39,456 bases of DNA from a virus (taxonomy: Duplodnaviria; Caudoviricetes), in the IMG/VR virus record IMGVR_UViG_3300020043_002150, positions 1 to 39,456 of that record; one strand, 5' to 3'. Both the position numbers and the translations under genes were made by a program. Shown piece by piece: positions 1-39,456 of the stretch. Below the pieces are notes generated by a model that was given only the letters and a program-made list of their open reading frames with translations, was not told the origin of the DNA and did not search any database. Positions within the stretch are counted from its first letter, which is position 1, and every line of letters starts with the position of its first letter.

Positions 1-121
1 GGTTCCTTTGTATTGTATTATTTAGCATATTTTTAAGGCATATCAACCACGGGATTGATAATCGAATTTACAACTCGTTGTATATCGTTGTAAGTAGCCC
101 AATCTCCGACTGCGGCTGCTC
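1..121. repeat. Terminal direct repeat, left copy (circular assembly overlap)
   Basis: Bases 1-121 are identical to 39336-39456. Confidence 0.97.
19..24 (-). promoter_or_regulatory. TAAATA box (same site as 39354-39359) upstream of gene 38618..39331
   Basis: CTAAATAATA on the minus strand, followed by a leader with AAAGGA SD. Confidence 0.7.
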
Positions 122-2078
122 GTTGTTGTCTTTCCATCCAATCACTGCCAAGTTGTCTGACTATTTCTGTTTGTTGTGCTACCGTTGTAGGATTAGTAGA
201 AACAGGCTGCGTTGTAGGTGCTATTGCTCCTGCGGCAGGTATAGTAGGCAACTGATAAGTGTTTGAAGCATTAGGCGTGACCATACTGGCAGGATTATAA
301 GCCTGTCTTCTGGTGGCTGCTTGTATTTGTCGTGTAGGAACATTTTTACCAGCAATTAAATCTGCTATCTGTGCTCCAGTCAGCGGTTCTGCGAGTTGCT
401 GTAAGCCCCAAGGCGTGTCTGGACCTGCTGCCTGATTGTAAGCAACATCATCAAATGTAGGACCAACCTGATAACCTTTTGCGTTCCAGTTATACTTGCT
501 TTGAGCAGGGTCATAGGTATTATAAAAATCACTGGGATTGATATAACCTGGATTTAATCCCAAACCTGTGCGTGGAGGTTGCGTAGTCACTGGAGGTAAT
601 GTTGGAGGTAGAGTCGGAGGCAAAGTAGGCGGCAATGTTGGTGGCATTGTCGGTGGGAATGTCGTAGGCTCAATATTACTCCAAGTTTCTGTTTCAGTGT
701 CAGTTGGTGTTTCTGTAGGAGGCTCTGTGGTCACAGGAGGCTCTGTTGTAAATGGCGGTAAGGTAAAATCAGTGACACTAATAGTAAATGTTTCCGTTGG
801 CGGAGGTGTAGTCTGCGGTGGTCGTGACGCAGTAATAATAATTTCACTGACTTCTTCAGTTTCAGTTGGCAACGGAGGTAATGTCATATCAGTGACACTA
901 ATAGTAAATGTTTCCGTTGGAGGTGGAGTTGTCTGCGGTGGTCGTGACGCAGTAATAATAATTTCACTGACTTCTTCTGTTTCCGTGATTGGTGGTAAAG
1001 AAGGCAATAGCGTATCCGTGAAACTAAATGTCAAAGTTTCAGTTGGAGGTGGAGTTGTCTGTGGAGGACGAGAAGCAGTAATAATAATTTCGCTGACTTC
1101 TTCAGTTTCAGTAATCACTGGTTCAGTAGGTATCTCTGGTAGTGGCATTGGTGTGACACTGATCAAAGGTATAGATATAGTAGGTCTATCAGTGGTAATA
1201 ATAATCTCACTGATTTCTTCTGTTGGTGATGGAGTAGGTCTTTCAGCAGTAATAATAATCTCACTGATTTCTGGTGTATCAGTGGGTGCGATATTACTCC
1301 AACTTAAAGTCGGTGCTTCTGTTGGTGGTTCTGTGGGACGCACAGCACTAATAATAATCTCCGAAATCTCTTCTGTTGGTGGTTCAGTTGGAGGAATAGT
1401 ATAAGGCAGCGTTGGTTCTTCCGTGGGTGGTATGGCACTCCAAGGTTCTGTAGCAGGCGGTTCTGTTTCAGGTGGTTCTGTAGGACGCGGTGCTGTAATA
1501 ATAATCTCACTGATTTCTTCAGTAGGTGCTTCAGTCACAGGAGGTTGCCAGGGCTCTGTAGGAGCCTCAGTAGGTGCTTCTGTTTCAGGTGGTTGCCAAG
1601 GTGCTTCTGTTTCAGGTGGCTGCCAAGGTGCTTCTGTTTCAGGTGGTTGCCAAGGTGCTTCTGTTTCAGGTGGCTGCCAAGGATCTACTGGACCTGTATC
1701 AATAGGTCCAGTGTCAATAGGTCCAGTATCAATAGGTCCAGTATCTATGGGTCCATTGTCAATAGGAGTTTCTTGATACGGATCATCACCATAGCCAAAA
1801 CTATCGTCAAATCCACCACCAGGTTCTCCCCAACCCCCACCCCAATCTCCCCAATCTCCAAATCCTCCGCCAGCACCACCATCCATTTCAGTCCAATAAC
1901 TATTATTGTCCGCAAACGCAAATTCTGGTAATCCTGTCTTTGGATTGATTGTGCCTCTACCACCCATACGCTTGAGCAAGGCTGCTTCTTCTGGGTTGAT
2001 GTGGGCTAATATGGTGTCACCGTCTCTGCCGTATTGTGCCAGCATTTCTGCTAATGAGGGTAGATTCTTTTTGTTCAT
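33..2078 (-). CDS. Putative internal virion/ejection protein; Pro/Thr/Glu-rich, with 7 TonB-box-like repeats
   Basis: N-terminal GRDGDTILAHINPEEAALLKRMGGRGTINPKTGLPEF is a motif I recognise from podophage virion proteins. The gene lies between tail genes and, across the junction, the ejection-protein cluster. TAAATA-N5-ATG start. Confidence 0.7.
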   Translation of the reverse strand: MNKKNLPSLAEMLAQYGRDGDTILAHINPEEAALLKRMGGRGTINPKTGLPEFAFADNNSYWTEMDGGAGGGFGDWGDWGGGWGEPGGGFDDSFGYGDDPYQETPIDNGPIDTGPIDTGPIDTGPIDTGPVDPWQPPETEAPWQPPETEAPWQPPETEAPWQPPETEAPTEAPTEPWQPPVTEAPTEEISEIIITAPRPTEPPETEPPATEPWSAIPPTEEPTLPYTIPPTEPPTEEISEIIISAVRPTEPPTEAPTLSWSNIAPTDTPEISEIIITAERPTPSPTEEISEIIITTDRPTISIPLISVTPMPLPEIPTEPVITETEEVSEIIITASRPPQTTPPPTETLTFSFTDTLLPSLPPITETEEVSEIIITASRPPQTTPPPTETFTISVTDMTLPPLPTETEEVSEIIITASRPPQTTPPPTETFTISVTDFTLPPFTTEPPVTTEPPTETPTDTETETWSNIEPTTFPPTMPPTLPPTLPPTLPPTLPPVTTQPPRTGLGLNPGYINPSDFYNTYDPAQSKYNWNAKGYQVGPTFDDVAYNQAAGPDTPWGLQQLAEPLTGAQIADLIAGKNVPTRQIQAATRRQAYNPASMVTPNASNTYQLPTIPAAGAIAPTTQPVSTNPTTVAQQTEIVRQLGSDWMERQQRAAAVGDWATYNDIQRVVNSIINPVVDMP
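768..1110 (-). repeat. ~120-bp coding tandem repeat x3 (TETEEVSEIIITASRPPQTTPPPTET...)
   Basis: Near-identical blocks at periods of 120 and 123 bp (compare 781-860 with 901-980). Confidence 0.9.
1572..1679 (-). repeat. 27-bp coding tandem repeat x4 (WQPPETEAP)
   Basis: aggtgcttctgtttcaggtggYtgcca four times, with no spacers. Confidence 0.95.
1690..1764 (-). repeat. 15-bp coding tandem repeat x5 (GPIDT)
   Basis: ggWccWgtRtcWatR-type units in tandem; the last unit is slightly degenerate. Confidence 0.9.
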
Positions 2079-2083
2079 TATGT

Positions 2084-2089
2084 TATTTA
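2084..2089 (-). promoter_or_regulatory. TAAATA box, leaderless class
   Basis: TAAATA-ACATA-ATG(2078). Overlaps the stop codon of the upstream gene. Confidence 0.7.
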
Positions 2090-3301
2090 TTTCTTTATCA
2101 CTTGTGCTGTCAGGCTGCGTCTGTTTAAGTTCATTGACTTTACAGCAACTTCGGCACCACTTTCAACATCTACATTGACTTCCATAATATACCAATAAAG
2201 TCCTGATGGTGGTGCGTCAATGATAGGAGTAAAGATAGTTAAACTCTGTGGTGCTTGTATATCACCAGTGCTATCTATAGTTGCTACTTGTAATACTAAA
2301 TCGTTGGCTGGAGTTGTTCCACCAAGTTGGCTGCCACTAAAAGTCACGGTATCACCAACAGCATAATTTCCACCACCTCCAGCACTTAAAATAGTAGAAC
2401 CTGTGCTGTAATTAGTTCCAGGAGCAGTTATATCTAAAGTTATTACCGCATTCGTTCCAGAACCAGAAGTAGAAACAGCATCGACATTAGTATAGATGCC
2501 ACTGGCACTGGCATCCGAAATTCCGCTGACAATGGTATAAGTTAGCGGGATACCTTCTGTATATGCTGTAAGGCTATCGTTATAAATTAGTTGCTTACTA
2601 ATAGTAGCATCAAACTCATAAAAATATTGAGGGTTTGCGGCTGTTCCACTATTAAACGCTCGATATCTGTTTAACTCTACATAAACATTCATCTGCGGAA
2701 CCGTGGATGGAAAATTAGTATTAGCAACAGCATAGTCAAATGGTGATATGTCAAGTTGTGCTGTGATGCTAACAAGATTATTACCAGCATCTATTTCTAC
2801 AATAGCATTAGCATCAGTGCTCATTACAGCACCATATCCACTGGTGACCCAGAGACTGGCTGTTCCTCCTGTGCCTACAACTCCAGGATTAGGAAAAGGA
2901 TTGGCTGCTCGTAATATAACATAATCAGTAGTGACTTTAACTACACCAATTCTACTAAAGGTATCATTATAGTCGCTGGGTGTGACACCGCTAATGGTCA
3001 CGCCATTACCTAAAGCAAATGGCGGATAAGGTTGAGTTGAAGCAAATGTAAATTTCCAAGTATAATCATCCAGCCATTCGCTGGTAGATAATGCTATAGG
3101 TGCTACATAAAGTTCGGCAGCAGTGGGTAAAAAATTAGACGGGTTAGTATAAGGAATGCGAAAGTTGCCAGTTATTCTGGCTGGTTCTGAACTACTAAAA
3201 CCAACAAGTTGTTGTCCAATACCACTGGGACCACTGATAGCGTAATTTACAGCATCTAATAAACTTTGGTCGTCACCACCATTGACAGGATAATTAGCCA
3301 T
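2087..3301 (-). CDS. Tail/virion structural protein
   Basis: 404 aa, rich in Gly/Ser/Thr beta-strand sequence, with a GGxNYAVGDTVT fibre-type motif. Translationally coupled to the nozzle gene. Confidence 0.65.
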   Translation of the reverse strand: MANYPVNGGDDQSLLDAVNYAISGPSGIGQQLVGFSSSEPARITGNFRIPYTNPSNFLPTAAELYVAPIALSTSEWLDDYTWKFTFASTQPYPPFALGNGVTISGVTPSDYNDTFSRIGVVKVTTDYVILRAANPFPNPGVVGTGGTASLWVTSGYGAVMSTDANAIVEIDAGNNLVSITAQLDISPFDYAVANTNFPSTVPQMNVYVELNRYRAFNSGTAANPQYFYEFDATISKQLIYNDSLTAYTEGIPLTYTIVSGISDASASGIYTNVDAVSTSGSGTNAVITLDITAPGTNYSTGSTILSAGGGGNYAVGDTVTFSGSQLGGTTPANDLVLQVATIDSTGDIQAPQSLTIFTPIIDAPPSGLYWYIMEVNVDVESGAEVAVKSMNLNRRSLTAQVIKK

Positions 3302-5406
3302 CAGCGATCATCCTCAACCTGTGTGAATTGCCAGGTAGTCGCACTACACATCCATACATTACTACTACTGGTATTCCCTAACTCAATGCTATTCACTCTG
3401 TAAGAGTTTTGATCAATTTGTATCCAAGGGTTATCAGTGTTTAATGCCATTGATTGACTTGCCTGAGTTGTTGGTAGTTGTCCTACACTTTGAGCACCTT
3501 CTATAGTCACACTGATCGTGCCAGTGCTTGGTATGATTGTTATCTCGTCAGTTGATGAAAATGGTATAGCACCAATATTCACTGCTTCAGGTAAGATCCT
3601 ATGGACCATAAGTTTGCCACTATAGTCTTTGATCATTTTAATGTTATCTCTACGGAACCTGCTGGTAATCGCACTACCATCTGCTTGAGTGTAGCCTATA
3701 TCTTTTTGGACTAACTTGCTGTCTGTGACACCCTGAGCATAGACCACGGTTCTGCTGCCAAAGTTAGCAGTCCAAGTGCCAGGTGTGTCTTCTACATAGA
3801 TAGGACTTTCACAGCCCATAGTTGCTGAACTTACATCTCTGGGTGCGTTCCAACAATCAATATCATATCTGTATGCCAACATCTTATTTGGCACACCGTT
3901 AGTTGCTTGGCTGTCTGGATAGTAAATCTCAATCTGGTTCTTTTGGCTATTGACTTCCATAAACACACGGTTGTAAAACTCTGGATCAAGTTGATCATAG
4001 AACCAGTTTTTAACACGCTGATTACCTATGCCAGTAAAGTCTTGTCCGTCGAATACCCAGATATCACGGGCATCAATACCATAGACTAACTTGTCTGTAT
4101 TGCCCCAGCAGTTTGCTGATAACAATCCTCTGCCCTGATTATACAATCTAACACCAAGAATTGGTGCTGATGTTGTAGAGTAGTTTAATGGTGAGAACAC
4201 CACCGTGTCCCAGTATGAACATAAGAAGAAGTTGCCATTACTTGGAAAAGCATCAAGAGCAGGACCACGCAACGGAACTTCTAACTGGTTGGCTACATTG
4301 GTGATTGTTGGTTCCCAGGTCAATGGTGCTTGGTTTAATCCGAATGCTTGACTCCATTGTATCGTCACGGGATATAACTCTGTTGCTGCCGTGTTTGAGT
4401 TTGTGGCTGTAAGATTACCTGCTACCAAGATTGATCCTACATTAGGAGTAGAATACATACGCATCCAGTCTGCTTTATAACTTGTCCAGTATGGGTTATA
4501 GTTCCAAGCGTATAAGGGTGCTACACTTCCGCCTCCAGGATAGCCTGCTGTTGGACTTGCTTGATATATGATGCCTAATAGTGTGCTTGATGATACGGTG
4601 AATGTTCCATCATATACACCATTTACTCCACTGATCACAATCTGACTATTAGCCAAATATGGTATAGCATTGTATGGACTCATAGTCATAGTTGTGCTTG
4701 ACACGGTCTGAGAGTTATTCACCGTCCAAGTAGAACCATTACCAGATCCTGATATGTTTGCTGTGATTCTTGTGCCTGTGGCTACACCAGTGCCATTGAC
4801 ATACTGACCAACTTTGAGTGTGCCAGTTCCACCACTGAATGAACCGATAGTCAATGTTGTTCCACTTATATCACAACCAGTAGCAACTACGGTGTCACTG
4901 AATGTCAGGTATTGTTCTGTTGGACTTTCATAAACGATGTCGTCAATATCAGTAGGCAATAGGTTAGAGTATAATGTCAGCGTAGGGCTACCGTCCAACC
5001 AAACCATAGGTGGATTGAATGTGTCATTGAAGAAAGGCACGGTGCCATTCCACGCTTCTGTTATGTTTGTAGCCTGTGTATAACCTGTGAAGTCTCCACC
5101 TGCTGGTGTTATGTCTTGCCAAGTTCCATCATATGTTGCCCACCATTTTCCTTCTGTGGTTGCTACGATAAACCAGAAGTATGTGTCTGCTCTAAAACCT
5201 GAACTGATATATGTTGGTGTTCCTTCTAAACTATCAAAGAACTCTTGCTCACCTGCTACTGAGCGTATGCCACGAACATCTGTTTCTACATTCAGTCCTT
5301 GATTGTATTCGTTTGGTCCTAACGCTGTTGAAGGAACATCAGGAGTGAATGACATCTTCGCAAAAGGTATGCGAACTTCGTCAAGTGGGTTGCGGATTTG
5401 TGCCAT
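3301..5406 (-). CDS. Tail stabilisation/nozzle protein (P22 gp10 / T7 gp12-like) with an inserted beta domain
   Basis: 701 aa with Trp/aromatic beta-propeller-like periodicity (DIWVFDGQ...IGNQRVKNWF...EIYYP...AYRY...W). Size and context fit. Confidence 0.65.
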   Translation of the reverse strand: MAQIRNPLDEVRIPFAKMSFTPDVPSTALGPNEYNQGLNVETDVRGIRSVAGEQEFFDSLEGTPTYISSGFRADTYFWFIVATTEGKWWATYDGTWQDITPAGGDFTGYTQATNITEAWNGTVPFFNDTFNPPMVWLDGSPTLTLYSNLLPTDIDDIVYESPTEQYLTFSDTVVATGCDISGTTLTIGSFSGGTGTLKVGQYVNGTGVATGTRITANISGSGNGSTWTVNNSQTVSSTTMTMSPYNAIPYLANSQIVISGVNGVYDGTFTVSSSTLLGIIYQASPTAGYPGGGSVAPLYAWNYNPYWTSYKADWMRMYSTPNVGSILVAGNLTATNSNTAATELYPVTIQWSQAFGLNQAPLTWEPTITNVANQLEVPLRGPALDAFPSNGNFFLCSYWDTVVFSPLNYSTTSAPILGVRLYNQGRGLLSANCWGNTDKLVYGIDARDIWVFDGQDFTGIGNQRVKNWFYDQLDPEFYNRVFMEVNSQKNQIEIYYPDSQATNGVPNKMLAYRYDIDCWNAPRDVSSATMGCESPIYVEDTPGTWTANFGSRTVVYAQGVTDSKLVQKDIGYTQADGSAITSRFRRDNIKMIKDYSGKLMVHRILPEAVNIGAIPFSSTDEITIIPSTGTISVTIEGAQSVGQLPTTQASQSMALNTDNPWIQIDQNSYRVNSIELGNTSSSNVWMCSATTWQFTQVEDDR

Positions 5407-8194: not shown

Positions 8195-8381
8195 GTGTTT
8201 GTTAGTAGTGTTAGTAGTTTTTACGCTTTCTATTAGTTTTTTTTTACTTTTTTTTTTTTTGTAGAATATATAAAAAACTACTAACACTACTAACAAACAC
8301 TATAAAAACAGCATTACAGGCACCTACAATGCTGTTTTTTGTGTTAGTAGTTTTTTGTTTTCACTACTAACAACTACTAAC
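8195..8381. other. Putative replication origin (iterons, inverted repeat, T-tract)
   Basis: Perfect 28-bp inverted repeat (8195-8222 / 8273-8300) flanks a poly-T/AT-rich spacer. Seven CTACTAAC/GTTAGTAG octamers. Directly downstream of the primase and helicase genes. Confidence 0.7.
8301..8340 (-). terminator. Intrinsic terminator after the helicase (possibly bidirectional)
   Basis: AAAAACAGCATTGTAG-GTGC-CTGTAATGCTGTTTTT hairpin; the G-U pairs favour the minus strand. Confidence 0.65.
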
Positions 8382-10017
8382 AAATATCATCAAAAAAGTC
8401 ATCATTTTGCTGATCTTGTAGTATTTTAGCCCTGATTTTCTCCAATTGTGTAGCATTTGGTAGGTTTTTCACCTCAATTTCCAGGTCTGTGTTAGTAGTT
8501 GTTAGCACTTGTGGTGACTCAACTCCTAACACTTTTGCCAGATCCTGATACACATCTTCCCAGTCCTGAAGATCAACAACATCTGGATTTTGTATGGTAT
8601 AGTAAGTATAGTTTCGTTCTACACTTTTTCTAACATACTTGTTTTTGCTCATCATTTTACCCCAAGCGGTCAAACTCAGTTTTCTATCACTGCCACCGTG
8701 GTCATCGTGCCATCTACTATATTGTTCGTAAAGCACACTGGCTTTATAACTATGATTGTTATTGCGTTCCAGTGTATCATCGCTGTCTAACCAAACGCTT
8801 ACAGGATTATTCACGCTTTCCAAAATACTCTTTTTAATCTTATTGATAAAACTATAGTTGCTGAATTGTATGTCCAGTTTAACCGTTTCTAAAACATAGG
8901 CAAAGCCTTCAGCCATTTCGATTGGTCTATCAATTGTCTGTCGTTTGATAGCACTGGCATATCTAACCCAGTTAGGGTCTTCTGTAGTTTTAATAAACTG
9001 ATTACGACGATCACTTGGTCCAATCTTTATTGGACATTCGTTATTGGTAGTAAAGATGTAATTGGCTGTATTGATAATAGCAAACGGAGTTGTATTACGC
9101 TTGTTGATCATCAGTGTAGGTTCATTACAATGGCTTTTAACCCATCTGTCCCAGTCAAACTTTTGACCTTCATCATCAAACTCATTTACTTCGATTAGTT
9201 GTTTGCCAACAAGGTGATCGTTCCAGCCTTTAATAATATCACTGCTACTTAAACCACCAACAGCGTTATTACCCATAATAAGTTTCATCAAACTTAAAAG
9301 CGTTCCTTTACCGTTGCCCTGTAATTCTCCGACAAACCACAGATTGGTTAGTAAATTGATACCTGGACGCTGAACTAACGCTGCCAACCATTTCATAACA
9401 AACTTAAAATCATCGTTGGTATAAGTGTCGTCTTTTATCTGTTTCCAAAGCATATCTGCTTCTATTTTGCTGTCTTCGTTCAACATCTCACCATTACATA
9501 AACTACGATAAACCAATCTGGTCATCAGTTTGCCATAAGCAAGATGCTGTTCATTACCAGGCAAACTATTGTCACGCCATTCGTTGAGATAACGCTTACC
9601 GCTGTATGATATAAACTTTGGACCAATAGGTATGCTCATTCTGGCATCAACCTGCGGACAACTTCCAATCACGCCCAAGCCTTCATTCTTTTTAACTAAT
9701 CCAGTGCCAGCATCCATATAATGAACAAAGCCACTAAAATAAGTTTCAATAAGTTCTTGCGTGACCACGCTACCGTTTGGTAGTCTATAGTTTAAGAATA
9801 TATTAAATGCGTGTTTCTTGGCATCCTGATCTTTAAAACTACTCCAACCTAAAGTCTCTGGATTGTATATAAAATACTCTCCGTCGATCTTACTGATATA
9901 CTCTGTTAGTTGTCTTAAATCTGCTATCAGTGTATTGTTGCTGTTTGATAACCAAATGTGATCCTCAAACGCATACTTCGTGTAAATGTTCTTATCTACA
10001 CCACTTTGTTTTTTCAT
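8377..10017 (-). CDS. SF3-type replicative helicase (DUF5906 / NrS-1 / D5-like)
   Basis: WLAALVQRPG, Walker A GELQGNGKGT, Walker B LIEVNE, sensor IFTTN and SDRR. Confidence 0.85.
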   Translation of the reverse strand: MKKQSGVDKNIYTKYAFEDHIWLSNSNNTLIADLRQLTEYISKIDGEYFIYNPETLGWSSFKDQDAKKHAFNIFLNYRLPNGSVVTQELIETYFSGFVHYMDAGTGLVKKNEGLGVIGSCPQVDARMSIPIGPKFISYSGKRYLNEWRDNSLPGNEQHLAYGKLMTRLVYRSLCNGEMLNEDSKIEADMLWKQIKDDTYTNDDFKFVMKWLAALVQRPGINLLTNLWFVGELQGNGKGTLLSLMKLIMGNNAVGGLSSSDIIKGWNDHLVGKQLIEVNEFDDEGQKFDWDRWVKSHCNEPTLMINKRNTTPFAIINTANYIFTTNNECPIKIGPSDRRNQFIKTTEDPNWVRYASAIKRQTIDRPIEMAEGFAYVLETVKLDIQFSNYSFINKIKKSILESVNNPVSVWLDSDDTLERNNNHSYKASVLYEQYSRWHDDHGGSDRKLSLTAWGKMMSKNKYVRKSVERNYTYYTIQNPDVVDLQDWEDVYQDLAKVLGVESPQVLTTTNTDLEIEVKNLPNATQLEKIRAKILQDQQNDDFFDDIC

Positions 10018-10871
10018 TGTTTTACTCCTCTAATGTTAAACTCTATCTTTTCCATTTTCTTTTTAATGCCTGCCATAAAGTATAAACTACCGATAGTCGG
10101 TGACTTTGCTTTATTCCAGGTTTTATACAAGTTATCATACTCGCCTCGCTCACGCTCGGGATAATATTGTGTCATTAAAAGTTTAGCAACGCCTCTACCA
10201 AGTTCGTGTGCTACAGCCCAACTTACTCTTGACCATTCATCGTAGGTCAATGCTGGTCTTCGTTGTTTGAGCACCGCTAACGCTTGCTCAACATCTGCGA
10301 CCTGAGCATCTGTTAGTGTGTCCAACGATACTTCAGGAGTTAGGTCAGGCTCTATTACTTTATCTCCTGCGATCTGTTCTAACCAGGCTAATAAAATACT
10401 ATCTGGTAAAGTATCCACAGGGTTAGTAGCATCTATCAACCAGAAGTAAGGTTGATGTGTATCTGGATGTATGCTTGGTGGTAGAACGCTTTGTCCGCCT
10501 GCCCATCTAAACTCAAAACCTTCACGGTCACCAGTAGCAACCTTTTTAGTTTTAAGCACATCCCAATATTCTTCTGGCACCCAAAACGCCATTTGGCAAC
10601 GGTCTGTTTTACCGCTTGACCAACTAACACTCTTCAACGCTGTTATGTCAATGCCGTGTTCAGTAGCCCAAGTCCAAGCACTGGTGCCATCAAAGTCAAT
10701 AGCACACACGCCATTACCTTTCGGACCTAATATTAAACCAATGTTCTGGCTGTCTATTCGGTCTAATGGTAATGGATTGTTTTGCCAGTCTGCTGGATAT
10801 GGTTTTTTCTCACCGCCACGCACTCGACAATACAGCCAGTTTGGTTGATGTTCGAGTATTGTATCACGCAT
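10014..10871 (-). CDS. Bifunctional DNA primase/polymerase (Prim-Pol) with PriCT-2-like C-terminal domain
   Basis: K.P...W, NIGL, AIDFD, GGQSVLPPSIHP...Y.W motifs; C-terminal YDEW..V..A...W......TIGSL. Confidence 0.88.
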   Translation of the reverse strand: MRDTILEHQPNWLYCRVRGGEKKPYPADWQNNPLPLDRIDSQNIGLILGPKGNGVCAIDFDGTSAWTWATEHGIDITALKSVSWSSGKTDRCQMAFWVPEEYWDVLKTKKVATGDREGFEFRWAGGQSVLPPSIHPDTHQPYFWLIDATNPVDTLPDSILLAWLEQIAGDKVIEPDLTPEVSLDTLTDAQVADVEQALAVLKQRRPALTYDEWSRVSWAVAHELGRGVAKLLMTQYYPERERGEYDNLYKTWNKAKSPTIGSLYFMAGIKKKMEKIEFNIRGVKQ

Positions 10872-13051: not shown

Positions 13052-13224
13052 TCCATTACCCCAAAGAATGCTTCTGCTTCTTCAAGCGTATCAAACCAAT
13101 ACCATCCATCAATGGGATATGTATGTTGATCTTTAGTTTCTGCTCGTAGTTCATAGTCCGCACTTATTACAAAGTTAGGTCCTTCAAGCAAATATTTGTT
13201 GTCTTCGTATTTGTAAAAACTCAT
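13048..13224 (-). CDS. Small tail-fibre-associated protein (chaperone-like)
   Basis: Likely ATG 13224 in ATGA overlap; YPIDGWYWFD..EEA motif; follows the LRR protein. Confidence 0.6.
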   Translation of the reverse strand: MSFYKYEDNKYLLEGPNFVISADYELRAETKDQHTYPIDGWYWFDTLEEAEAFFGVME

Positions 13225-15107
13225 CCTGTCACCGTCCATCCTTTGGCTGTAGCAATCGATGGGTTATCTGTAGCAGTTCCCCAGTTGCCTGTCACCGTTA
13301 TTGTTTTACCAGCACCTGTGGCACTGAGATTAGTATATACTTCATCCAAGGCTGTTCCGCTCAAGTTATTACTGGCTATACTAAATGAAGCGTTCATACC
13401 TGTAGCCCTAAATCTACTTAAACTTCCAATATTATTAAACGCAGCCGTGTAAGTAGTTGCCGCACTGAGATTCCAGGCTGGGATTTCTTCTAAACAATAA
13501 CAACCTAAACACATACTACCTACATTGGTTATAGTAGTTGTATCAAATGTTGGTAATGAAGTCAAACTATAGCAGTTAGCAAATATAGAAGAAATATCAG
13601 TTGGTCCAGCAAAATCATAAAGTGGCACACTTGTTAAACTATAGCAGTTGTTAAACATTGTGCCTATTGATGTTGCTGATGAAGTATTCATTGCTGGTGC
13701 CGTAGTTAAACTATAGCAGTTTTGGAACATATTAGCAAAACTCGTGCCGCTATTAGTATTAGTAGTTGTCACTCCAGAATCAAATGATTGTAAACTTGAG
13801 CAGTTTAAGAACATACTTGAGTAAGTAGTCACACTTGTAGTCACAAATGGATTAAACACTTTCATAGAGTAGCAGTTTTGGAACATTGAACCAATGTTAG
13901 TTAAACTGGCACTTGTGATTATTACTGGACTTTCGATCATACTAAAACAACTGGCAAAAGCACTTGAAGCGTTAGTGACATTTGTCCAACTAAAACTTGG
14001 AAATGTTCTAACACCAGCACAATTCGAAAATATAGAAGTAGCACTAACTAACGCTAACCATTTCATATCAGGTATTGTAGTAAGATTTTGACAACTGGCA
14101 AAAGCACTTGTAGCAGTAGTCACGGTAGAAAAATTATATGCTGGAATACTTTTTAATTTAGCACATCCACTAAACATACTACTTATATCTGTAAGACTGG
14201 CTGAAGTTGTTATAAAAGGAGCAACTTCTAAACTTTGACAACCACTAAAGATACTGGTCATAGTTGTAGTAGAAGCAAAATAAGTATGAAAATCACTGGG
14301 AAAATATTTTAAGTTAAAGCAGTTGATAAACATAGAGTTTGTTGCTGCCGCATTGAATCCAGATAAACTTGGGCACATTACTAAACTGCTACATCCACTA
14401 AACATACTATTTGCTTGACCTGTTGTAGTTTTAACAAAGCCATTGACCGTGATAAGATTTACACAACCAAAAAATAAAAAAGCCGCACCTGTAAAAGTCA
14501 CGGTAGAACCCAAATCTACTTGACGCAAGTTTAACATATTAGCAAAACCATTGGTGATACTTAAACCAGCACTGACTTTTTGAATGTAAATATGTTCTAA
14601 TAACGGAAATCTAACTTGAGTGCTTGCTACACTGGTGCTTGTCGCAAAACTGAAAGTAGAGCAGTTTGGTGTTATGATCTGTAGATCTAACATATTTTGA
14701 GGAAAACCTGCGGTTGTAAAACCTGTGGGTCTTGTGGTAAAATTCACGCCAGTAATAGTTCCTGATGTTGTAATAACAATCATACCCTGTTTATAAACTT
14801 CACTGGTAGTAGTTAAAGCAGGATCGCTAAAACTATATTGGTGACTGGCTAACGCATTACTGGCGTAAGTGTTTGAAGTGCCATCACCCCAATCCACTGA
14901 TGTTGTGCCTGTGCCTGTAATAGTAAAACTTACATAGTTGCTGGCATTGTCAAAAACAGCATACAATATATTGATTTGTGTTGCTGTATCTGGTAAAACA
15001 GGCATAGCCAGCCAGTTGGCATTTCTGGTCCAAGTAGGCAGGTCAAGATACTCTGCTTGCCATTCTTTAGCCGCTGTTGTTCTTACTGCTTGTGTGCCGA
15101 AACTCAT
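13221..15107 (-). CDS. BspA/DUF285-like leucine-rich-repeat protein (putative adhesin or receptor-binding protein)
   Basis: About 15 repeats of [MAI]FxxCxxLxxxP with a ~23-24 aa period; N-terminal PKD-like VDWGDG. Confidence 0.8.
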   Translation of the reverse strand: MSFGTQAVRTTAAKEWQAEYLDLPTWTRNANWLAMPVLPDTATQINILYAVFDNASNYVSFTITGTGTTSVDWGDGTSNTYASNALASHQYSFSDPALTTTSEVYKQGMIVITTSGTITGVNFTTRPTGFTTAGFPQNMLDLQIITPNCSTFSFATSTSVASTQVRFPLLEHIYIQKVSAGLSITNGFANMLNLRQVDLGSTVTFTGAAFLFFGCVNLITVNGFVKTTTGQANSMFSGCSSLVMCPSLSGFNAAATNSMFINCFNLKYFPSDFHTYFASTTTMTSIFSGCQSLEVAPFITTSASLTDISSMFSGCAKLKSIPAYNFSTVTTATSAFASCQNLTTIPDMKWLALVSATSIFSNCAGVRTFPSFSWTNVTNASSAFASCFSMIESPVIITSASLTNIGSMFQNCYSMKVFNPFVTTSVTTYSSMFLNCSSLQSFDSGVTTTNTNSGTSFANMFQNCYSLTTAPAMNTSSATSIGTMFNNCYSLTSVPLYDFAGPTDISSIFANCYSLTSLPTFDTTTITNVGSMCLGCYCLEEIPAWNLSAATTYTAAFNNIGSLSRFRATGMNASFSIASNNLSGTALDEVYTNLSATGAGKTITVTGNWGTATDNPSIATAKGWTVTG

Positions 15108-27520: not shown

Positions 27521-28059
27521 TTTTTATCCTCTAATAATGCTATAGCAAGTTTTCCGTGCTTTACTATATAAGCCTCTAAATGAGGCTTTAGTCTTTTAGC
27601 AACACGATCATATGTGCTACTAACCAAATGCTCACTGACTACTTTATACGCAGGGTTTAATCTGTAATCATTGATAGTTTTATAACCTTGTTCGTCATCG
27701 TGTTCGTAATAGTTCAGGTATATAAATTCTGTGGGTAATATTTTAATTTTACCATCTTTATATTCTGCTGTTTCTATACTGCTTTGCCAACGAGCATCTA
27801 TCAATAAGTTATGTCTAAAACCAATAATAACACTGGTAATCAATAACTGCTCTAAAGTAGTAGTATTTAACTTGCCTGTATAAACGATATCTACATCCAT
27901 AGTATTTTTGATATCAGTTAAACATCTGCCTGTTATGTATCCTTTATATTCACTGCGTTCAATGACTAATTTCATATCATCATACCAAGCAGATATGGCA
28001 GCAATAGTTGGTCTATTAAAACCTCTGTCTGTGGTATATGCTCCTCTGGTATATTTCAT
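27517..28059 (-). CDS. Putative Pol-beta-fold nucleotidyltransferase
   Basis: YITGR......TMDVDIV plus a later LID fits the hG[GS]-x-DhD-..D signature, with R in place of S. Confidence 0.55.
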   Translation of the reverse strand: MKYTRGAYTTDRGFNRPTIAAISAWYDDMKLVIERSEYKGYITGRCLTDIKNTMDVDIVYTGKLNTTTLEQLLITSVIIGFRHNLLIDARWQSSIETAEYKDGKIKILPTEFIYLNYYEHDDEQGYKTINDYRLNPAYKVVSEHLVSSTYDRVAKRLKPHLEAYIVKHGKLAIALLEDKK

Positions 28060-33826: not shown

Positions 33827-33830
33827 AATC

Positions 33831-36233
33831 TTATTTACCTTGTTTCTTCTTACCATCAGCGGCTTTTTTTAATAAGTCTGCGGCTTCTGCCTGTAAATCG
33901 CTGTATGATTTAGGACCTTGTAATACTTTACCAGTTTTAACATCAACTTGACGATAAATCTTTTTAGGCATATCTGGCACTAATTCTTTAACAGCATCAG
34001 GCATTCTTGTATAATCAGCATTATCAAGGATTTCGTGACGGATACCATTTTCAGTATGAGAACCTGTTGGTAAATCATCATACGATCCTTTTAATTTACC
34101 CATCATTACATTACTCATAAAATCGTTGGGTTCTCCAGCCATCATACTCATAGTGCCTGGAGGAGCATTTTTTCGTTTAGATTTAATCAACTCTAATATT
34201 TCATTAGTAGTCAATTTAGGAGTTTCTGCCACACCTTCAGGAGCAACTGGTCCTGATACAGGTGGAGTATCTACTTTAGGTTTAGATGGAGCAACTTTAC
34301 CCGTTTTCATAAACTCGCTCATTCTTTTAACTCGTTCCATTGCCGCATCATCTACGGCTTTTAATTCTTCGGGTGTCATTGCGGCTCTTTCTTGTTCTAT
34401 TCTTGTTTTTTGTGTTGGACCACGAGTAATTTTACCGTAAGCATCTGCTTCCTTAAATTGTCTATTGATTTCTGTTCTAATGGCTTTTCTGGCTTCACCG
34501 ACAGGCATTTGTTTTAGGTCTTCAATACCCATCACTTTTGTCCAATCAATTTCAGGCATACCGTGAATTTTAGCGGTTTCGTTAAACAACTCTTTGTTTA
34601 TAACTAATTGTTTATTTTTAGTTGTCACGCCAGCACCAGCGTCCATTTTCATAGCCGCACGAACTTGGAATCCATCAGCCGCATCAACGGCAGGTGTAGT
34701 AGGTTCAACTGCTGGGAACTTTTCTCTAACCAATCTATCCATTTCATCAGGCGTGACTTTACCTACCAATGCTTTACGCATTTCACCTGGAGTATTATAT
34801 ACAGGTTCGCGTTTAACTGGTGCTGGTTCTGGTGGCAATTCTGTAGGTTTTACAGGACCGACTAATTCTGGTGGTTGTGGTTTCGGCTTAAACGCTTCTA
34901 CATTTTCACTACGCCACGCTTTGATTTCGTCATAAGCCATAGCATCTGCCATTTCACGAGTTAGTTTTTGACCTCGTTGTTGAGCATCTTTTAGTAAGTC
35001 TGCTGTTCTTGCGGCAACAGCCTTGTTAAATGTATCACCAAAGTTAGCACTACCTTGTTCAGCCTGTGCGTAATGTGTAGCAACATCAGGTAATGACCAA
35101 GTTTGTTTAGGTTGTGGTGCTGGCTTAGGCATAGATGGTGCCTTGGCTTGTGTTGTAGCCATAGCAGCCTGAGCCGCAGGCGTAGGAGCAGCCATACCAC
35201 CTGGACTTATTGGTCCCGCAGCCTGAAAACCTCTGGGCATAGGTCCTGGTTGAACACCAGGCATAGGACGAACACCTGTTTGGTATTCGTTGAGTATTTT
35301 TGGCAACTCTGGAGTAAATCCTTTGTTGGCTAAACGCATATCTGCTAATGCTTGAGCACCAGCAAGACCACCTCGTAATGCTGTTAAAACTGGAACACCA
35401 CCAGTAAAGAACATACTGCCAATGTCTGCGGCAGCAGTTATTGGATTACGGTAAGTTTCGCCTAATCTTTCGCCAAATGCTCTGGCACCTTGTCCAGCGT
35501 TAGGTATATTACCACCACTCAACATCATTGCGGCTTTGTCTAATCTACCTTCAGGTAATTCGCTGATAGGTCGTTGTTCAGGCATTTGCCCGTAGGGTAA
35601 TTCGCCACGCTCAAACTTTGCGAACTCTTCAGGCGGTGTAAATGTAGGACCAATAGGATTTCTTTGACTTGGCACTTGATAACCACGGGGTGTTCTTCCA
35701 GGTCTGGCAATATAGCCTGTGCCTGTGCCTACAGCACCACTAACAACATCACCGACTGCTCCTGCGGCTTTAGGTATTGTTTGTAATCCTTTAACCGTTG
35801 GAAAAGGTGCCATAACTTCACCACCAAGTCTGGCAAGTTTAGCACTGGGAGCATCGCTCTTAAATGGCAACATCTCATTCCATTGTTCGCTGCCAAACGG
35901 AACTTGATAAGGACTTTGTTGTCCAGTAGCCGCACCATAAAGATTTCCTGGCAAGTTTAATACATCTGGAATAGCACCTAAAGTGCCAGTGACTACGCCT
36001 CTGGCAGTTTGTAAGGGCATATCTTTGGCTGCTTCTCTGTCTTGCTGACTTTCTGGACGACGACCTTGAGGACGATAAACACCAAAGGCAGCACCACCCG
36101 CACCTTCTACAGGTTTTTGTTGCTGACTTTGTGGGGCAGGACGAAGGCTACGAGCAGCCTCGTCAATGTCCTTTTCAGTAGGCTCACGCTCAAACTCTAC
36201 TCGTTGTCCATTTACTTCATAGATATATGCCAT
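33831..36233 (-). CDS. Putative internal virion (ejection) protein
   Basis: 800 aa, A/G/P-rich with hydrophobic Gly/Ala helices; last gene of the ejection-like cluster. Confidence 0.65.
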   Translation of the reverse strand: MAYIYEVNGQRVEFEREPTEKDIDEAARSLRPAPQSQQQKPVEGAGGAAFGVYRPQGRRPESQQDREAAKDMPLQTARGVVTGTLGAIPDVLNLPGNLYGAATGQQSPYQVPFGSEQWNEMLPFKSDAPSAKLARLGGEVMAPFPTVKGLQTIPKAAGAVGDVVSGAVGTGTGYIARPGRTPRGYQVPSQRNPIGPTFTPPEEFAKFERGELPYGQMPEQRPISELPEGRLDKAAMMLSGGNIPNAGQGARAFGERLGETYRNPITAAADIGSMFFTGGVPVLTALRGGLAGAQALADMRLANKGFTPELPKILNEYQTGVRPMPGVQPGPMPRGFQAAGPISPGGMAAPTPAAQAAMATTQAKAPSMPKPAPQPKQTWSLPDVATHYAQAEQGSANFGDTFNKAVAARTADLLKDAQQRGQKLTREMADAMAYDEIKAWRSENVEAFKPKPQPPELVGPVKPTELPPEPAPVKREPVYNTPGEMRKALVGKVTPDEMDRLVREKFPAVEPTTPAVDAADGFQVRAAMKMDAGAGVTTKNKQLVINKELFNETAKIHGMPEIDWTKVMGIEDLKQMPVGEARKAIRTEINRQFKEADAYGKITRGPTQKTRIEQERAAMTPEELKAVDDAAMERVKRMSEFMKTGKVAPSKPKVDTPPVSGPVAPEGVAETPKLTTNEILELIKSKRKNAPPGTMSMMAGEPNDFMSNVMMGKLKGSYDDLPTGSHTENGIRHEILDNADYTRMPDAVKELVPDMPKKIYRQVDVKTGKVLQGPKSYSDLQAEAADLLKKAADGKKKQGK

Positions 36234-38608
36234 TATTGGACCTTTTTATATTTGTTTCCGCTACTTGTAGTTCCAGGTTGTGCTTTATTTTCTTGTGCTG
36301 GGTTAGTTCCACCAAATGTCCAGTCGTTTTTACCTTCTTTGTCATACTTTTTAAGAATAAAGATCATACCTTGTAAAGCAGCCAAGCGTTCTGCCTGTGT
36401 CTTTTTAGGATTAGCAAAATCACCAGCGGCTTCAACATACAAGTTAGTATCTTTGTCACTTTGCGGACCTTCAAATCGTGGAATCATATACTTAAATGGA
36501 TATGACATAGTATTCAATTGAGCGATTGCTTGAGCACCATTAGTGCCTACACCAAATAGTCGTGCTAATGTATCTACACCAGCACCAATACCACTGCCTG
36601 TAGATTTTTTAATTAAATCTGCCACAGGCTGGATTAAACCATAGTTTTCATCTGCGGCTTTTTGGTTAGTAATGTCTTGTGCCTGACCTTTACCTCTGGC
36701 TTCTGCTGGTGGTTTGCCTTCTGCCTCAGTAAGTGCTTTATTGATAGCAACATTAGCCTCACGCTGTGCCAAACTTCCGCCAGCCGCAGGTTGGGCAGTA
36801 GTTTTGCCACGGTTTCTGTCAATAATGGCTTGATTGTCAGCCAATTCTTTTTGTAATATGGCTTGACGCTGACTTTCGCTCTCTTTTGAGAATCCAGCAG
36901 GCTTTTGTTTCATTTCACGCTGTAATGATTCTACATTTCGTTGTGCTCTGGCTATTGTGGCTGCGTCATCACCGCCTTCAACAGGCAAGCGTTCTGCTAC
37001 ACTACCACTTGGGCTGTAGTTTCTAACCTGATTAAAGATTTCTGGGCTGTTAGCATTGATCTGTGCTTGTGTAGCACGGATTAAACTACCATCACCTGGA
37101 TCAAGCACGAATGCTTTGTCCATAGCGGCTTTAGCACCAGCCGTAGATGGAGCAGTTTTAAAGTCAATCATTGCTTTATCCAATGCTTTCTGGAAACTTG
37201 ATCCTACACTTTGTGGTTGTGGGGTTGCTGTGCCAGTATATGCTTGACCTTGTTTAGGTCCTGACATATATGTAAAGCCTGCTTGACCAGTTTGAGCATT
37301 TTGAGTTGGCATAACCAAATCTTGTCCAGTGCCTTCGGCATTTGGAACCGTGTGAATACCACCAGTAAAGCCTGTAGATTGACTACCAAACTTTTGAGCA
37401 CCTGCTCGCAATTTGTTTAATGTAGTTTCAGTAGCAATCGTGCCTTCGTTGTCTTTGGCACGAATAATATTACCACTACTATCTTTTTCTACTTGCCAAT
37501 TACTACCACCCAGCGTGACTTGCTCAAATGTAGTTTCTTTACCAAGTATTTTTGCTTGTTTTTGTTGTGCCAAAGCATCTAAACCCAAACGCTTGTATAA
37601 TACAGCAGCCAAATAGTCAGTGACGGTGACTTCTTCTTTAGCCTTACCTTTTTCTGGTTTAATACTTTGTAAGATTTTGTTCTGTGCTTGAAGATCGCCA
37701 GTTTGTGCCTTTGCCATAATAGCATCAGCCTCATCTTTCATTGTTTGTTGCTTAAAACTTGACTTGATCTTTTCCGCAATCATATCACGACTTTCAGGAT
37801 TTTTGTTAGCAACATCTAACAACTTATAAAAGTCTGTGCCAGCCTCATTAGCAGCCTGAATCCAAGGTGCGGGTGCGGGTGCTGTGACTACTGGTGTTGT
37901 AGGACGAGCCTGTGCCTGAGCACCAGCCTGTGCTAAACTTGCTCCAGGTGCCGCTGCCTGTGCTGGCATTTGAGGAGCACCCGCAACTTGAACAGCAGGA
38001 CCAGGTTGTGGTAATTTTGCCATTACAGGTGCTTGTTGTGCTTGCTGTGGTGAAATCGCACCTTGAGCAGGCAAGTTGTCAGGCATACCAGGAATAGGCG
38101 TAGTCAATTTTGGCTCTGGGCGTTGTGCTTGTGCCATTGCTTGAGCAAATTGCTGGGCTTGTTGTTGTGCTTCTGGACTATTAGGTGCTACAGGACCCGA
38201 CATCTGTGGCATACCAGCCATAGGTGCTTGTTGTTTTTGTTCTTGTGCTTGTCCAGCAGGAATCTGTGTTTTTACAACTTGTTCTTGACTGCCATCACCA
38301 TAAGTTTTAACGGTTTGTGTTTTAACTTCTGTATTGGCTGCTTCATCGGCTTGTTCTTGGCGTTGATCGTTGATCATACGCTGTTGTAATGCTTCGGCAG
38401 GATTCATTATGGCATTACCAACATTGCTGACTCTGTCCATAGCCTGATCAAATCTATTACCTACAGCCGTGCCAACTCTATCCATAAAACTTGGATTTAC
38501 AGGACCAACAGGATTAGCATATGCTTCCTCGTCCATTCGTTGAGCAATGGCTTCGCGTCTTTTGCGTTCTTCTTCTTCGTCTAATGGGTTCATATCATAT
38601 AGTGCCAT
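36233..38608 (-). CDS. Putative internal virion (ejection) protein
   Basis: 791 aa, Q/A/P-rich, with C-terminal PRFEGPQSDKD...Y..AAG motif of DNA-transfer-type proteins. Confidence 0.65.
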   Translation of the reverse strand: MALYDMNPLDEEEERKRREAIAQRMDEEAYANPVGPVNPSFMDRVGTAVGNRFDQAMDRVSNVGNAIMNPAEALQQRMINDQRQEQADEAANTEVKTQTVKTYGDGSQEQVVKTQIPAGQAQEQKQQAPMAGMPQMSGPVAPNSPEAQQQAQQFAQAMAQAQRPEPKLTTPIPGMPDNLPAQGAISPQQAQQAPVMAKLPQPGPAVQVAGAPQMPAQAAAPGASLAQAGAQAQARPTTPVVTAPAPAPWIQAANEAGTDFYKLLDVANKNPESRDMIAEKIKSSFKQQTMKDEADAIMAKAQTGDLQAQNKILQSIKPEKGKAKEEVTVTDYLAAVLYKRLGLDALAQQKQAKILGKETTFEQVTLGGSNWQVEKDSSGNIIRAKDNEGTIATETTLNKLRAGAQKFGSQSTGFTGGIHTVPNAEGTGQDLVMPTQNAQTGQAGFTYMSGPKQGQAYTGTATPQPQSVGSSFQKALDKAMIDFKTAPSTAGAKAAMDKAFVLDPGDGSLIRATQAQINANSPEIFNQVRNYSPSGSVAERLPVEGGDDAATIARAQRNVESLQREMKQKPAGFSKESESQRQAILQKELADNQAIIDRNRGKTTAQPAAGGSLAQREANVAINKALTEAEGKPPAEARGKGQAQDITNQKAADENYGLIQPVADLIKKSTGSGIGAGVDTLARLFGVGTNGAQAIAQLNTMSYPFKYMIPRFEGPQSDKDTNLYVEAAGDFANPKKTQAERLAALQGMIFILKKYDKEGKNDWTFGGTNPAQENKAQPGTTSSGNKYKKVQ

Positions 38609-38617
38609 TATATATCC

Positions 38618-39331
38618 TTAAATCTTAAAGCCAAGGTTGCTACCACTGCTTGAAGTAGAACTTCCAGTAGGTCCAAGGTTATAACTGGCTGCTGGAGTGC
38701 CAAATATCACTGAAGCATATTGATTGTATAATTGTTGTGGTGTCATAGCAGCCTGAGTTGCTGTGCCTGCGGCACCAACGGCTTGTCCAATATTACCACT
38801 ACCAATTTGTGCTAATTGTCCAGCCACACCTGCTCGTTGAGTAGCAATATCTCGTTGGACATCTGCGGCAGTTTTAGCCATCATATTAGCATTTGTTCCA
38901 GCAGTTTGTCGTTCAGCAAGTGCTTGTCTGGCACTACCTAAATTACCAGTGCCACCAAATTGTGCTCGTTGATCGGCGATGTTCTTTTCATAGGCTGCTT
39001 GTGCGGGAGCCAAAGCACTTTGAATTTGGTTGGCTTCATAATCAGGATTGAATAAACTTTGTAATCCACTGACACCAGTGCGTAATGCTGATTCACCAGT
39101 TTCACCTAATGTGCCCTGTGCTTGCCTTGCTATACCAGCCTGATTTTGTGCGGCATTTAATACGCCACCTGCTGCCTGATTATAAACATCAGTAGCACCT
39201 CTGACAGCACCAGTGTATGTTGGTGCTAATGTATCTGTAAAGAATTTGTTCTGTGCCTCAACTTGACTGGCTTGAGCACCTGTTAGTCTTGGGTCTGTTG
39301 AACTTTGATTGTTGGATTTTCCGCCACTCAT
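38618..39331 (-). CDS. Putative DNA pilot/ejection protein (P22 gp7-like)
   Basis: 237 aa, A/G/Q-rich; MSGGKS start, NP.Y, and GG.G.LGSARQ motif. Confidence 0.65.
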   Translation of the reverse strand: MSGGKSNNQSSTDPRLTGAQASQVEAQNKFFTDTLAPTYTGAVRGATDVYNQAAGGVLNAAQNQAGIARQAQGTLGETGESALRTGVSGLQSLFNPDYEANQIQSALAPAQAAYEKNIADQRAQFGGTGNLGSARQALAERQTAGTNANMMAKTAADVQRDIATQRAGVAGQLAQIGSGNIGQAVGAAGTATQAAMTPQQLYNQYASVIFGTPAASYNLGPTGSSTSSSGSNLGFKI

Positions 39332-39335
39332 ATTG

Positions 39336-39456
39336 GGTTCCTTTGTATTGTATTATTTAGCATATTTTTAAGGCATATCAACCACGGGATTGATAATCGA
39401 ATTTACAACTCGTTGTATATCGTTGTAAGTAGCCCAATCTCCGACTGCGGCTGCTC
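39336..39456. repeat. Terminal direct repeat, right copy
   Basis: Identical to 1-121. Confidence 0.97.

What the first reader, a model, noticed from the sequence alone, without database searches (positions are those of the whole stretch)
822..1521. Seven tandem TonB-box-like motifs on proline-rich spacers in a putative ejection protein
Seen: the 681-aa protein carries seven copies of E[IV]SEIII[TS][AT]xR (EEISEIIITAPR, EEISEIIISAVR, PEISEIIITAER, EEISEIIITTDR and 3x EEVSEIIITASR). They are separated by extended P/T/E linkers. The motif is conserved in amino acids while codons and linkers diverge. Known: TonB boxes (BtuB DTLVVTA, FepA DTIVVTA, EEIVVTAxR in many receptors) are acidic-hydrophobic beta-strands bound by TonB, and group B colicins use one to be pulled into the cell. 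Inference: once ejected into the periplasm, this protein could offer serial handles to the TonB-ExbBD motor as a ratchet for ejectosome or DNA import. Alternatively it could titrate TonB and block TonB-dependent competitors. Caveat: Ile replaces the usually conserved Val.
Basis: partly seen in the sequence, partly recalled or inferred. Interest (0 to 1): 0.85.

Follow-up and report, generated by a model that had tools for sequence, protein, structure and literature searches.

The report
TonB-box array in phage ejection protein
A likely injected protein of an uncultured short-tailed phage carries seven copies of a short motif matching the handle that bacterial outer-membrane transporters offer to the TonB motor, so the phage may borrow that motor during entry, though binding is untested.

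Summary
The 681-aa ORF (33-2078, minus strand) of a complete ~39.3-kb podophage carries seven E[IV]SEIII[TS][AT]xR motifs. A TonB-box profile learned blind from 87 bacterial transporters scores six at 13.9-22.7 bits (real boxes: median 19.7); none of the other 40 phage proteins reaches 10. The Ile caveat falls: one real box reads TVDEIIITATR. The gene lies between the tail genes and a trio sized like podophage ejection proteins. In relatives the box is optional: 13 of 51 complete same-slot proteins have one, often textbook (ELPEVVITATR), scattered over the tree, while others lack it. Across IMG/VR, box patterns fall in 60 protein clusters, the annotated ones mostly tape-measure, hub or lytic virion proteins, against 7 for permuted patterns. 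A predicted TonB complex gave only weak support (0.32, best control 0.01). Best reading: accessory TonB handles that let the host motor pull or tether the ejected chain, as group B bacteriocins do. Host, ejection and binding are unshown. Nine literature searches listed no phage-borne box. The scan noted the same on at least nine other genomes (not independent evidence).

The parts
33..2078 (-). 681-aa low-complexity protein in the slot just before the ejection-protein trio; carries the box array
   Evidence: no Pfam, PHROG or NCBIfam hit; Atlas model pLDDT 0.39
1911..2078 (-). GRxGD..LAH..GLPEF leader (aa 1-56), an unnamed module; fused to a PHROG 'DNA ejection protein' in phage Venkman gp46
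   Evidence: 6494 clusters at E<=1e-3; AF2 pLDDT 59 and no fold match
1485..1517 (-). Box 1, EISEIIITAPR, 17.2 bits
1338..1370 (-). Box 2, EISEIIISAVR, 13.9 bits
1239..1271 (-). Box 3, EISEIIITAER, 14.6 bits (codon ruler starts one residue earlier, at P)
1185..1217 (-). Box 4, EISEIIITTDR, 7.0 bits; weakest, with Thr where 84 of 87 real boxes have Ala or Gly
1068..1100 (-). Box 5, EVSEIIITASR, 22.7 bits (76th percentile of real boxes)
942..974 (-). Box 6, EVSEIIITASR, 22.7 bits; the segment used in the complex prediction
822..854 (-). Box 7, EVSEIIITASR, 22.7 bits
757..1112 (.). ~120-bp tandem repeat (2.9 copies, 82% matches) holding boxes 5-7 and their second strands
1014..1043 (-). Second strand-like motif TETLTFSFTD after box 5
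888..917 (-). Second strand-like motif TETFTISVTD after box 6
768..797 (-). Second strand-like motif TETFTISVTD after box 7
36..563 (-). C-terminal region (aa ~506-681) conserved among close orthologues (71-93% identity)
2087..3301 (-). 404-aa gene just upstream, likely a tail part; no family hit
3301..5406 (-). 701-aa virion structural protein (phrog_3287, E 1.6e-21), likely the tail nozzle
38618..39331 (-). 237-aa gene that follows the ORF across the genome junction; size and G/A/Q-rich make-up of a P22 gp7-like ejection protein; profile link weak
36233..38608 (-). 791-aa putative second ejection protein (phrog_33352, unknown function)
33831..36233 (-). 800-aa putative third ejection protein; no family hit
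39336..39456 (.). 121-nt terminal repeat identical to 1-121; closes the genome and joins the ORF to the 237-aa gene

Best explanation
The seven repeats match bacterial TonB boxes, and they likely act as handles on a likely ejected, disordered phage protein that the host's TonB would grip and pull or tether in the periplasm during entry. Steps: (1) shown: the motif fits a profile of real boxes over all 11 positions and lies in an acidic P/T/E chain; (2) inferred from gene order and relatives: the protein is packed in the virion and sent through the tail with the three ejection proteins, its only evident route to the periplasm since it has no signal segment; (3) predicted, weakly: each box adds a strand to the TonB C-terminal domain; (4) inferred by analogy with pyocin S2 and klebicin C: ExbBD-driven retraction draws the chain inward one box after another, speeding or anchoring assembly of the DNA channel. 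The 40-aa units (about 14 nm if extended, my estimate) would offer a fresh handle after each release. The second strand after boxes 5-7 may mask the box as a hairpin until ejection. The module is accessory: gained, lost or swapped often, probably with the host.
For: Blind Gibbs motif from 87 pre-plug windows gives [TEQ][LV][EDP][EPA][VI][VI]V[TS][AG][TS]R. Six of 7 phage motifs score 13.9-22.7 bits; 0 of the other 40 window proteins reach 10; 2 of 39,925 transporter-barrel windows reach 10. Same-slot proteins: 30 windows at 12 bits or more in 56,849 aa (shuffled mean 2.7), against 0, 1 and 1 in the three following genes and 2 in the gene before; 19 of 51 complete ones pass a relaxed test, shuffled mean 1.2. 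Unrelated-looking slot proteins carry textbook boxes (ELPEVVITATR, QLGEVVVTGQR, TLSEVTVTGKR) behind three different nozzle types. IMG/VR scans that ignore the leader: 43 and 17 in-frame clusters for two box patterns against 4 and 3 for permuted patterns. The unspecified R/K at box position 11 appears in 20 of 43 in-frame clusters against 2 of 27 shadow-frame hits (Fisher p 5e-4). Of 60 clusters 23 have a PHROG hit: 9 tape measure, 2 baseplate hub, 3 lytic, 2 virion structural, 7 other. Complex of a betaproteobacterial TonB domain with box 6: weak support, score 0.32, best of 3 controls 0.01, partner pLDDT at least 53, runs agree in at least 75% of contacts; the mark was reached by 116 of 157 solved complexes and 2 of 215 mismatches, but at 0.60 or under by only 18 of 157 and by both mismatches; it may come from memory of solved TonB complexes. 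Pulling on bacteriocin boxes: PMC12927319 and PMC9022066, passages.
Against: The box is absent from most relatives: 38 of 51 complete same-slot proteins at 12 bits, 132 of 147 leader-bearing ORFs, and 147 of 150 broad leader representatives, where 3 is near the shuffled 1.2. Orthologue L014 keeps the linker strand but carries DTYTEFPEGSTVDKRP instead; L002 has TIFEWIITTDR (-6.5 bits). The commonest variant in close kin, IIITTDR, scores about 7 and has Thr where 0 of 87 real boxes do. None of 41 genes scanned in six cultured phages has a 12-bit box. The 237-aa neighbour links to a known ejection family only weakly (E 0.56; HH probability 6.8%). AF2 folds boxes 4-7 and the second strands into strands on their own, at pLDDT below 60. 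The host is unknown. Permuted controls also break strand pattern, so part of that excess may be generic. Slot and leader counts include near-identical copies.
Confidence: 0.47

Rival explanations
1. The boxes bind TonB, but as decoys: the ejected multivalent chain soaks up TonB and briefly blocks TonB-dependent phages, bacteriocins or iron uptake.
For: Seven copies suit avidity. The patchy spread over the tree (12 changes among 53 rows, at least 7 forced by starred branches) suits an accessory conflict function. All the sequence evidence for TonB likeness applies equally.
Against: No hydrophobic signal or membrane segment (max KD19 0.94), so only the few virion copies would reach the periplasm. 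Single-box relatives are common. Boxes also sit inside tape-measure and hub proteins, which are entry machinery.
Confidence: 0.12
2. The units are structural: box plus second strand form beta-hairpins that stack, compacting the acidic chain in the head or stiffening an extended tether, with no host partner.
For: AF2 places strands on boxes 4-7 and on the three second strands. The second strand is kept in L014 and L002, where the box is changed.
Against: Model pLDDT is 42 overall and under 60 on the strands; Atlas pLDDT 0.39. Boxes 1-4 and most relatives' boxes have no second strand. Self-assembly does not explain the match at the acidic, small-residue and R/K positions.
Confidence: 0.14
3. The motif is a handle for a different periplasmic protein with a TonB-like C-terminal fold, such as TolA or a specialised TonB paralogue (fold likeness recalled, not tested here).
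For: Variants drift from the transporter consensus (IIITTDR, TIFEWIITTDR). Candidate host genomes hold several TonB_C paralogues (up to 7 matches in G002).
Against: The best copies equal transporter boxes almost letter for letter.
Confidence: 0.12
4. The motif is a by-product of a T/E/I/V-rich, slippage-prone linker: one chance hit amplified by tandem duplication, with no function.
For: Boxes 5-7 are one recent tandem repeat; the slot protein varies from 369 to 1797 aa and usually lacks a box; Ile codons are all ATT.
Against: Composition-matched shuffles never reach 17 bits in 2000 tries. The motif stays while linkers and protein backgrounds change completely. In-frame excess and the R/K test point to selection.
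Confidence: 0.1

Closest known systems
TonB box of TonB-dependent transporters (strand before the Plug domain, PF07715; e.g. BtuB)
   Same: Same 11-residue pattern: acidic lead-in, three beta-branched residues, T/S, small residue, R. Phage copies score like real boxes; BtuB's own box scores 15.8.
   Different: Seven copies inside a soluble low-complexity chain; no plug, barrel or signal peptide.
TonB boxes of Ton-dependent bacteriocins (pyocin S2, klebicin C, colicin B)
   Same: [quoted passage not shown]
   Different: Those papers describe an N-terminal box on a toxin that threads through a host channel. Here the boxes are internal and tandem, there is no toxin or receptor-binding domain, and the likely route is the phage tail.
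Podophage ejection (pilot) proteins: T7 gp14-16, P22 gp7/gp20/gp16
   Same: Gene position after the tail genes; the next three genes (237, 791, 800 aa) fit the size series in Table 1 of PMC8954989.
   Different: This is a fourth, hypervariable gene ahead of the trio; no sequence match to the T7 or P22 proteins was found; that review's main text has no mention of TonB.
TonB-dependent phages T1 and phi80 (TonB need recalled; FhuA use in PMC9586334, passages)
   Same: Phage entry linked to the Ton system.
   Different: There TonB is thought to act on the receptor's box (recalled); here the phage protein itself carries the boxes.

Membership tests
TonB box | Sequence fits the consensus of boxes from real transporters | tested here: met
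   6 of 7 copies at 13.9-22.7 bits, real median 19.7; one copy at 7.0
TonB box | Lies in an exposed, flexible segment | tested here: inconclusive
   P/T/E-rich, pLDDT 0.39-0.42, but weak hairpins predicted for boxes 5-7
TonB box | Binds the TonB C-terminal domain by strand addition | tested here: inconclusive
   weak support, 0.32 against best control 0.01; no interface given; stand-in TonB
TonB box | Reaches the periplasm of a host that has TonB-ExbBD | not testable with these tools
   host unknown; 4 of 5 MAGs holding leader-bearing contigs have TonB_C and Plug hits, but binning of phage contigs is unreliable
TonB box | Couples transport to the proton motive force | not testable with these tools
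   needs experiment
TonB-dependent transporter | Plug domain and beta-barrel after the box | tested here: not met
   no PF07715 match in the genome; no Pfam hit on the protein
Ton-dependent bacteriocin | Receptor-binding and toxin domains | tested here: not met
   no Pfam, PHROG or NCBIfam hit
Podophage ejection protein | Gene in the module after the tail genes of a short-tailed phage | tested here: met
   SU10 capsid and portal hits; order conserved in relatives
Podophage ejection protein | Homology to a known ejection protein | tested here: inconclusive
   its leader is fused to phrog_4287 in Venkman gp46 (E 5.7e-11), and in L019 and L096 the next gene is phrog_4287; the window's own neighbour matches only at E 0.56
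Podophage ejection protein | Present in the virion and ejected on adsorption | not testable with these tools
   uncultured phage

The most novel reading that the evidence does not exclude
Many unrelated phages have independently fitted their envelope-crossing proteins (podophage ejection proteins, tape measures, baseplate hubs, lytic virion proteins) with their own TonB boxes, and use the host TonB-ExbBD motor as a ratchet to drag entry machinery into the cell: a phage-encoded, motor-driven step of genome delivery, here in a seven-handle form.
Probability: 0.35. Interest if true: 0.92.

Novelty: new variant of a known kind. Interest (0 to 1): 0.74.

Why it matters
How short-tailed phages get their ejection proteins across the periplasm, and with what energy, is an open question. 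A phage-borne TonB box gives a named host motor and a short peptide, so the idea can be tested without culturing this phage: peptide binding and a box swap in E. coli K-12 would do. If true, it extends bacteriocin-style motor hijacking to viruses, would explain some TonB dependence that is not due to the receptor, and makes the box a host-range marker in uncultured phages. The unnamed GRxGD leader (6494 clusters) is a further marker for internal virion proteins.

Tried and rejected
Host assignment failed. Portal and terminase match only an uncultured Manatee Spring podovirus closely (47%, 50%); Dps gave distant hits only; leader hits in GTDB genomes are mostly short MAG contigs of mixed taxa. 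Family, fold and atlas searches on the protein and its leader gave nothing; the repeat profile found no PDB sequence. A search for a cultured phage with a box found none: no tblastn match for the L080 repeat region, and no 12-bit box in 41 genes from Venkman, DSL-LC04, PBR31, PE067, AP1 and Amjad_SA (best 11.6). The raw count for permuted pattern B (58 stretches) exceeded the true pattern (35); only 3 of the 58 were in frame against 32 of 35. The careful tree did not finish; the quick tree was used, after dropping truncated slot proteins without a box, and its 12-bit cut-off counts some weak boxes as absent, so changes are overestimated. I rejected 'mis-binned transporter fragment' (no plug or barrel; complete phage genome) and 'exported superinfection-exclusion protein' (no signal segment). 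Look-ups of earlier notes by place and by sequence were empty.

Full report
Setting. The window is a complete virus record with a 121-nt terminal repeat. It encodes an SU10-type capsid and portal, a terminase and a Prim-Pol primase, and I read it as a podophage. Across the junction the minus-strand order is 701 aa (phrog_3287 virion protein, likely nozzle), 404 aa, the 681-aa protein, then 237, 791 and 800 aa. Close relatives keep this order. The last three sizes fit the gp7/gp20/gp16 series in Table 1 of PMC8954989 (passages). The window's 237-aa gene links only weakly to PHROG's 'DNA ejection protein' (E 0.56; HH probability 6.8%). However, the leader of the 681-aa protein is fused to that family in cultured phage Venkman gp46 (E 5.7e-11), and in L019 and L096 the gene after the leader-bearing one belongs to it. 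Ejection is therefore inferred, not shown.

Observation. All seven motifs are present at the stated place, in a region that is 20% Pro, 21% Thr and 15% Glu. Boxes 5-7 lie in a ~120-bp tandem repeat, each followed by a second strand-like motif. The protein has no family hit, no hydrophobic segment and an Atlas model of pLDDT 0.39.

Is it a TonB box? I took the residues before the Plug domain of 87 transporter loci, a subset of the matches (the best loci returned, from Caulobacter, Rhodospirillales and betaproteobacterial genomes), and ran a Gibbs sampler that never saw the phage. It found the box, with leave-one-out median 19.7 bits. The phage copies score 22.7 (three), 17.2, 14.6, 13.9 and 7.0. 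The next best window in the protein scores 0.6. None of the other 40 window proteins reaches 10, 2 of 39,925 barrel windows do, and none of 2000 shuffles reaches 17. Real boxes include TVDEIIITATR, TVSEIVVTAQK and QLGEIVITATR, so Ile is allowed.

Relatives. Seven close proteins carry 4-7 copies, mostly the weaker IIITTDR form. Among ORFs of 143 fetched loci, 15 of 147 leader-bearing proteins have a 12-bit box against 5 of 1001 others (exact duplicates removed only; shuffled mean 1.5). These sit behind three unrelated nozzle types. Anchoring on the 237-aa gene instead (80 of 131 loci kept), the preceding gene gives 76 distinct proteins of very different sequence: 19 have a box, 13 of the 51 complete ones, with 30 windows against 2.7 shuffled, while the three following genes give 0, 1 and 1. 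On a quick tree of 53 rows the label changes 12 times, at least 7 forced by starred branches, against a shuffled mean of 14.6. Against conservation: only 3 of the best 150 leader representatives have a box (shuffled 1.2); orthologue L014 swaps the motif while keeping the linker strand, L002 has a Trp-containing variant and L005 has none; six cultured phages checked have none. The box is an optional module, not a core part.

Beyond this family. Two exact box patterns were scanned in IMG/VR without using the leader (120 of about 150 stretches; 35). In-frame hits form 43 and 17 clusters; permuted patterns give 4 and 3. The R/K left unspecified in the first pattern is present in 20 of 43 in-frame clusters and 2 of 27 shadow-frame hits (p 5e-4). 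Of the 60 clusters, 37 have no PHROG hit; the 23 that do are 9 tape measures, 2 baseplate hubs, 3 lytic proteins, 2 virion structural proteins and 7 others, including a terminase and three tail proteins that are probably chance.

Structure. A TonB C-terminal domain from a Fluviibacter MAG (alignment of 35) with box 6 (alignment of 19) scored 0.32, best of 3 controls 0.01, partner pLDDT at least 53, runs agreeing in at least 75% of contacts: weak support. That mark was reached by 116 of 157 solved complexes and 2 of 215 mismatches, but at 0.60 or under by only 18 of 157 and both mismatches, and it may reflect memory of solved TonB complexes. AF2 of the repeat region alone has mean pLDDT 42, with strands on boxes 4-7 and the second motifs below 60. 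The leader gave pLDDT 59 and no fold match.

Mechanism. TonB binds a box and pulls until the load exceeds the grip, then lets go (PMC9022066, passages). Pyocin S2 and klebicin C present their own box in the periplasm and are dragged in; the pyocin box is housed in a beta-hairpin that detaches (PMC12927319, passages). I infer the same for this protein: sent through the tail, it exposes boxes in turn, TonB grips and draws or holds the chain, and the DNA channel forms faster or more reliably. The serial array would give a new handle after each release. I put binding to TonB at about 0.6, use in the phage's own entry at 0.47; decoy, hairpin, other partner and neutral repeat share the rest.

Literature. 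Searches listed no paper on a phage-borne TonB box; four returned nothing. I saw listings only, except passages of PMC8954989, PMC12927319, PMC9022066 and PMC9586334 and the abstract of 10.1101/2021.05.11.443673. No supplements were read, and subscription papers are not covered. The TonB need of T1 and phi80 and the TolA fold likeness are recalled. The scan's own notes report the same motif on at least nine other genomes; they are unchecked and not independent, but two prompted my leader-free scans.

Verdict. A real, statistically strong TonB-box mimic in the ejection module, optional among relatives, with function inferred. New variant of a known kind; interest 0.74.

Noticed in passing
window 1911-2078 (-): The GRxGD..LAH..GLPEF leader is a large unnamed module: 6494 clusters at E<=1e-3, often twice per protein, with no Pfam, PHROG or PDB match. 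It may be a packaging or processing tag for internal virion proteins.
   Followed up: partly
window 28056-29015 (-): GlcNAc glycosyltransferase (PF11397, E 4e-55) between terminase and portal. It might glycosylate the Thr/Pro-rich linker or other virion proteins; untested.
   Followed up: no
L014:5974-7950 (+): Orthologue with three copies of DTYTEFPEGSTVDKRP where the window has boxes, same linker strand: possibly a handle for another host protein.
   Followed up: partly
L428, L431, L415, L429, L430, L306, L329 (tape measures); L295, L309 (baseplate hubs): Canonical boxes inside tape-measure proteins and at the N-terminus of baseplate hubs; cultured hub relatives align only from residue 38, after the box.
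   Followed up: partly
L019, L057, L096 slot proteins, C-terminus: Leader-bearing slot proteins end in a SDSIPAMLSDGEFV motif shared with tape-measure PHROGs (E down to 9e-9), linking podophage ejection proteins and tape measures.
   Followed up: partly
window 33395-33856 (-): Dps/ferritin-like gene directly after the ejection trio (PF00210); an iron-related gene next to a TonB-related module, possibly coincidental.
   Followed up: partly
window 13221-15107 (-): 628-aa protein with DUF285 repeats among the tail fibre genes, a likely receptor-binding candidate.
   Followed up: no
window 8377-10871 (-): Primase split into a Prim-Pol/PriCT-2 gene and a DUF5906 helicase-type gene, both matching phrog_1156.
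   Followed up: no
L005:6001-9363 (+): The slot gene appears as two ORFs (195 and 884 aa) with an Asn/Ile-rich repeat body and no box.
   Followed up: no
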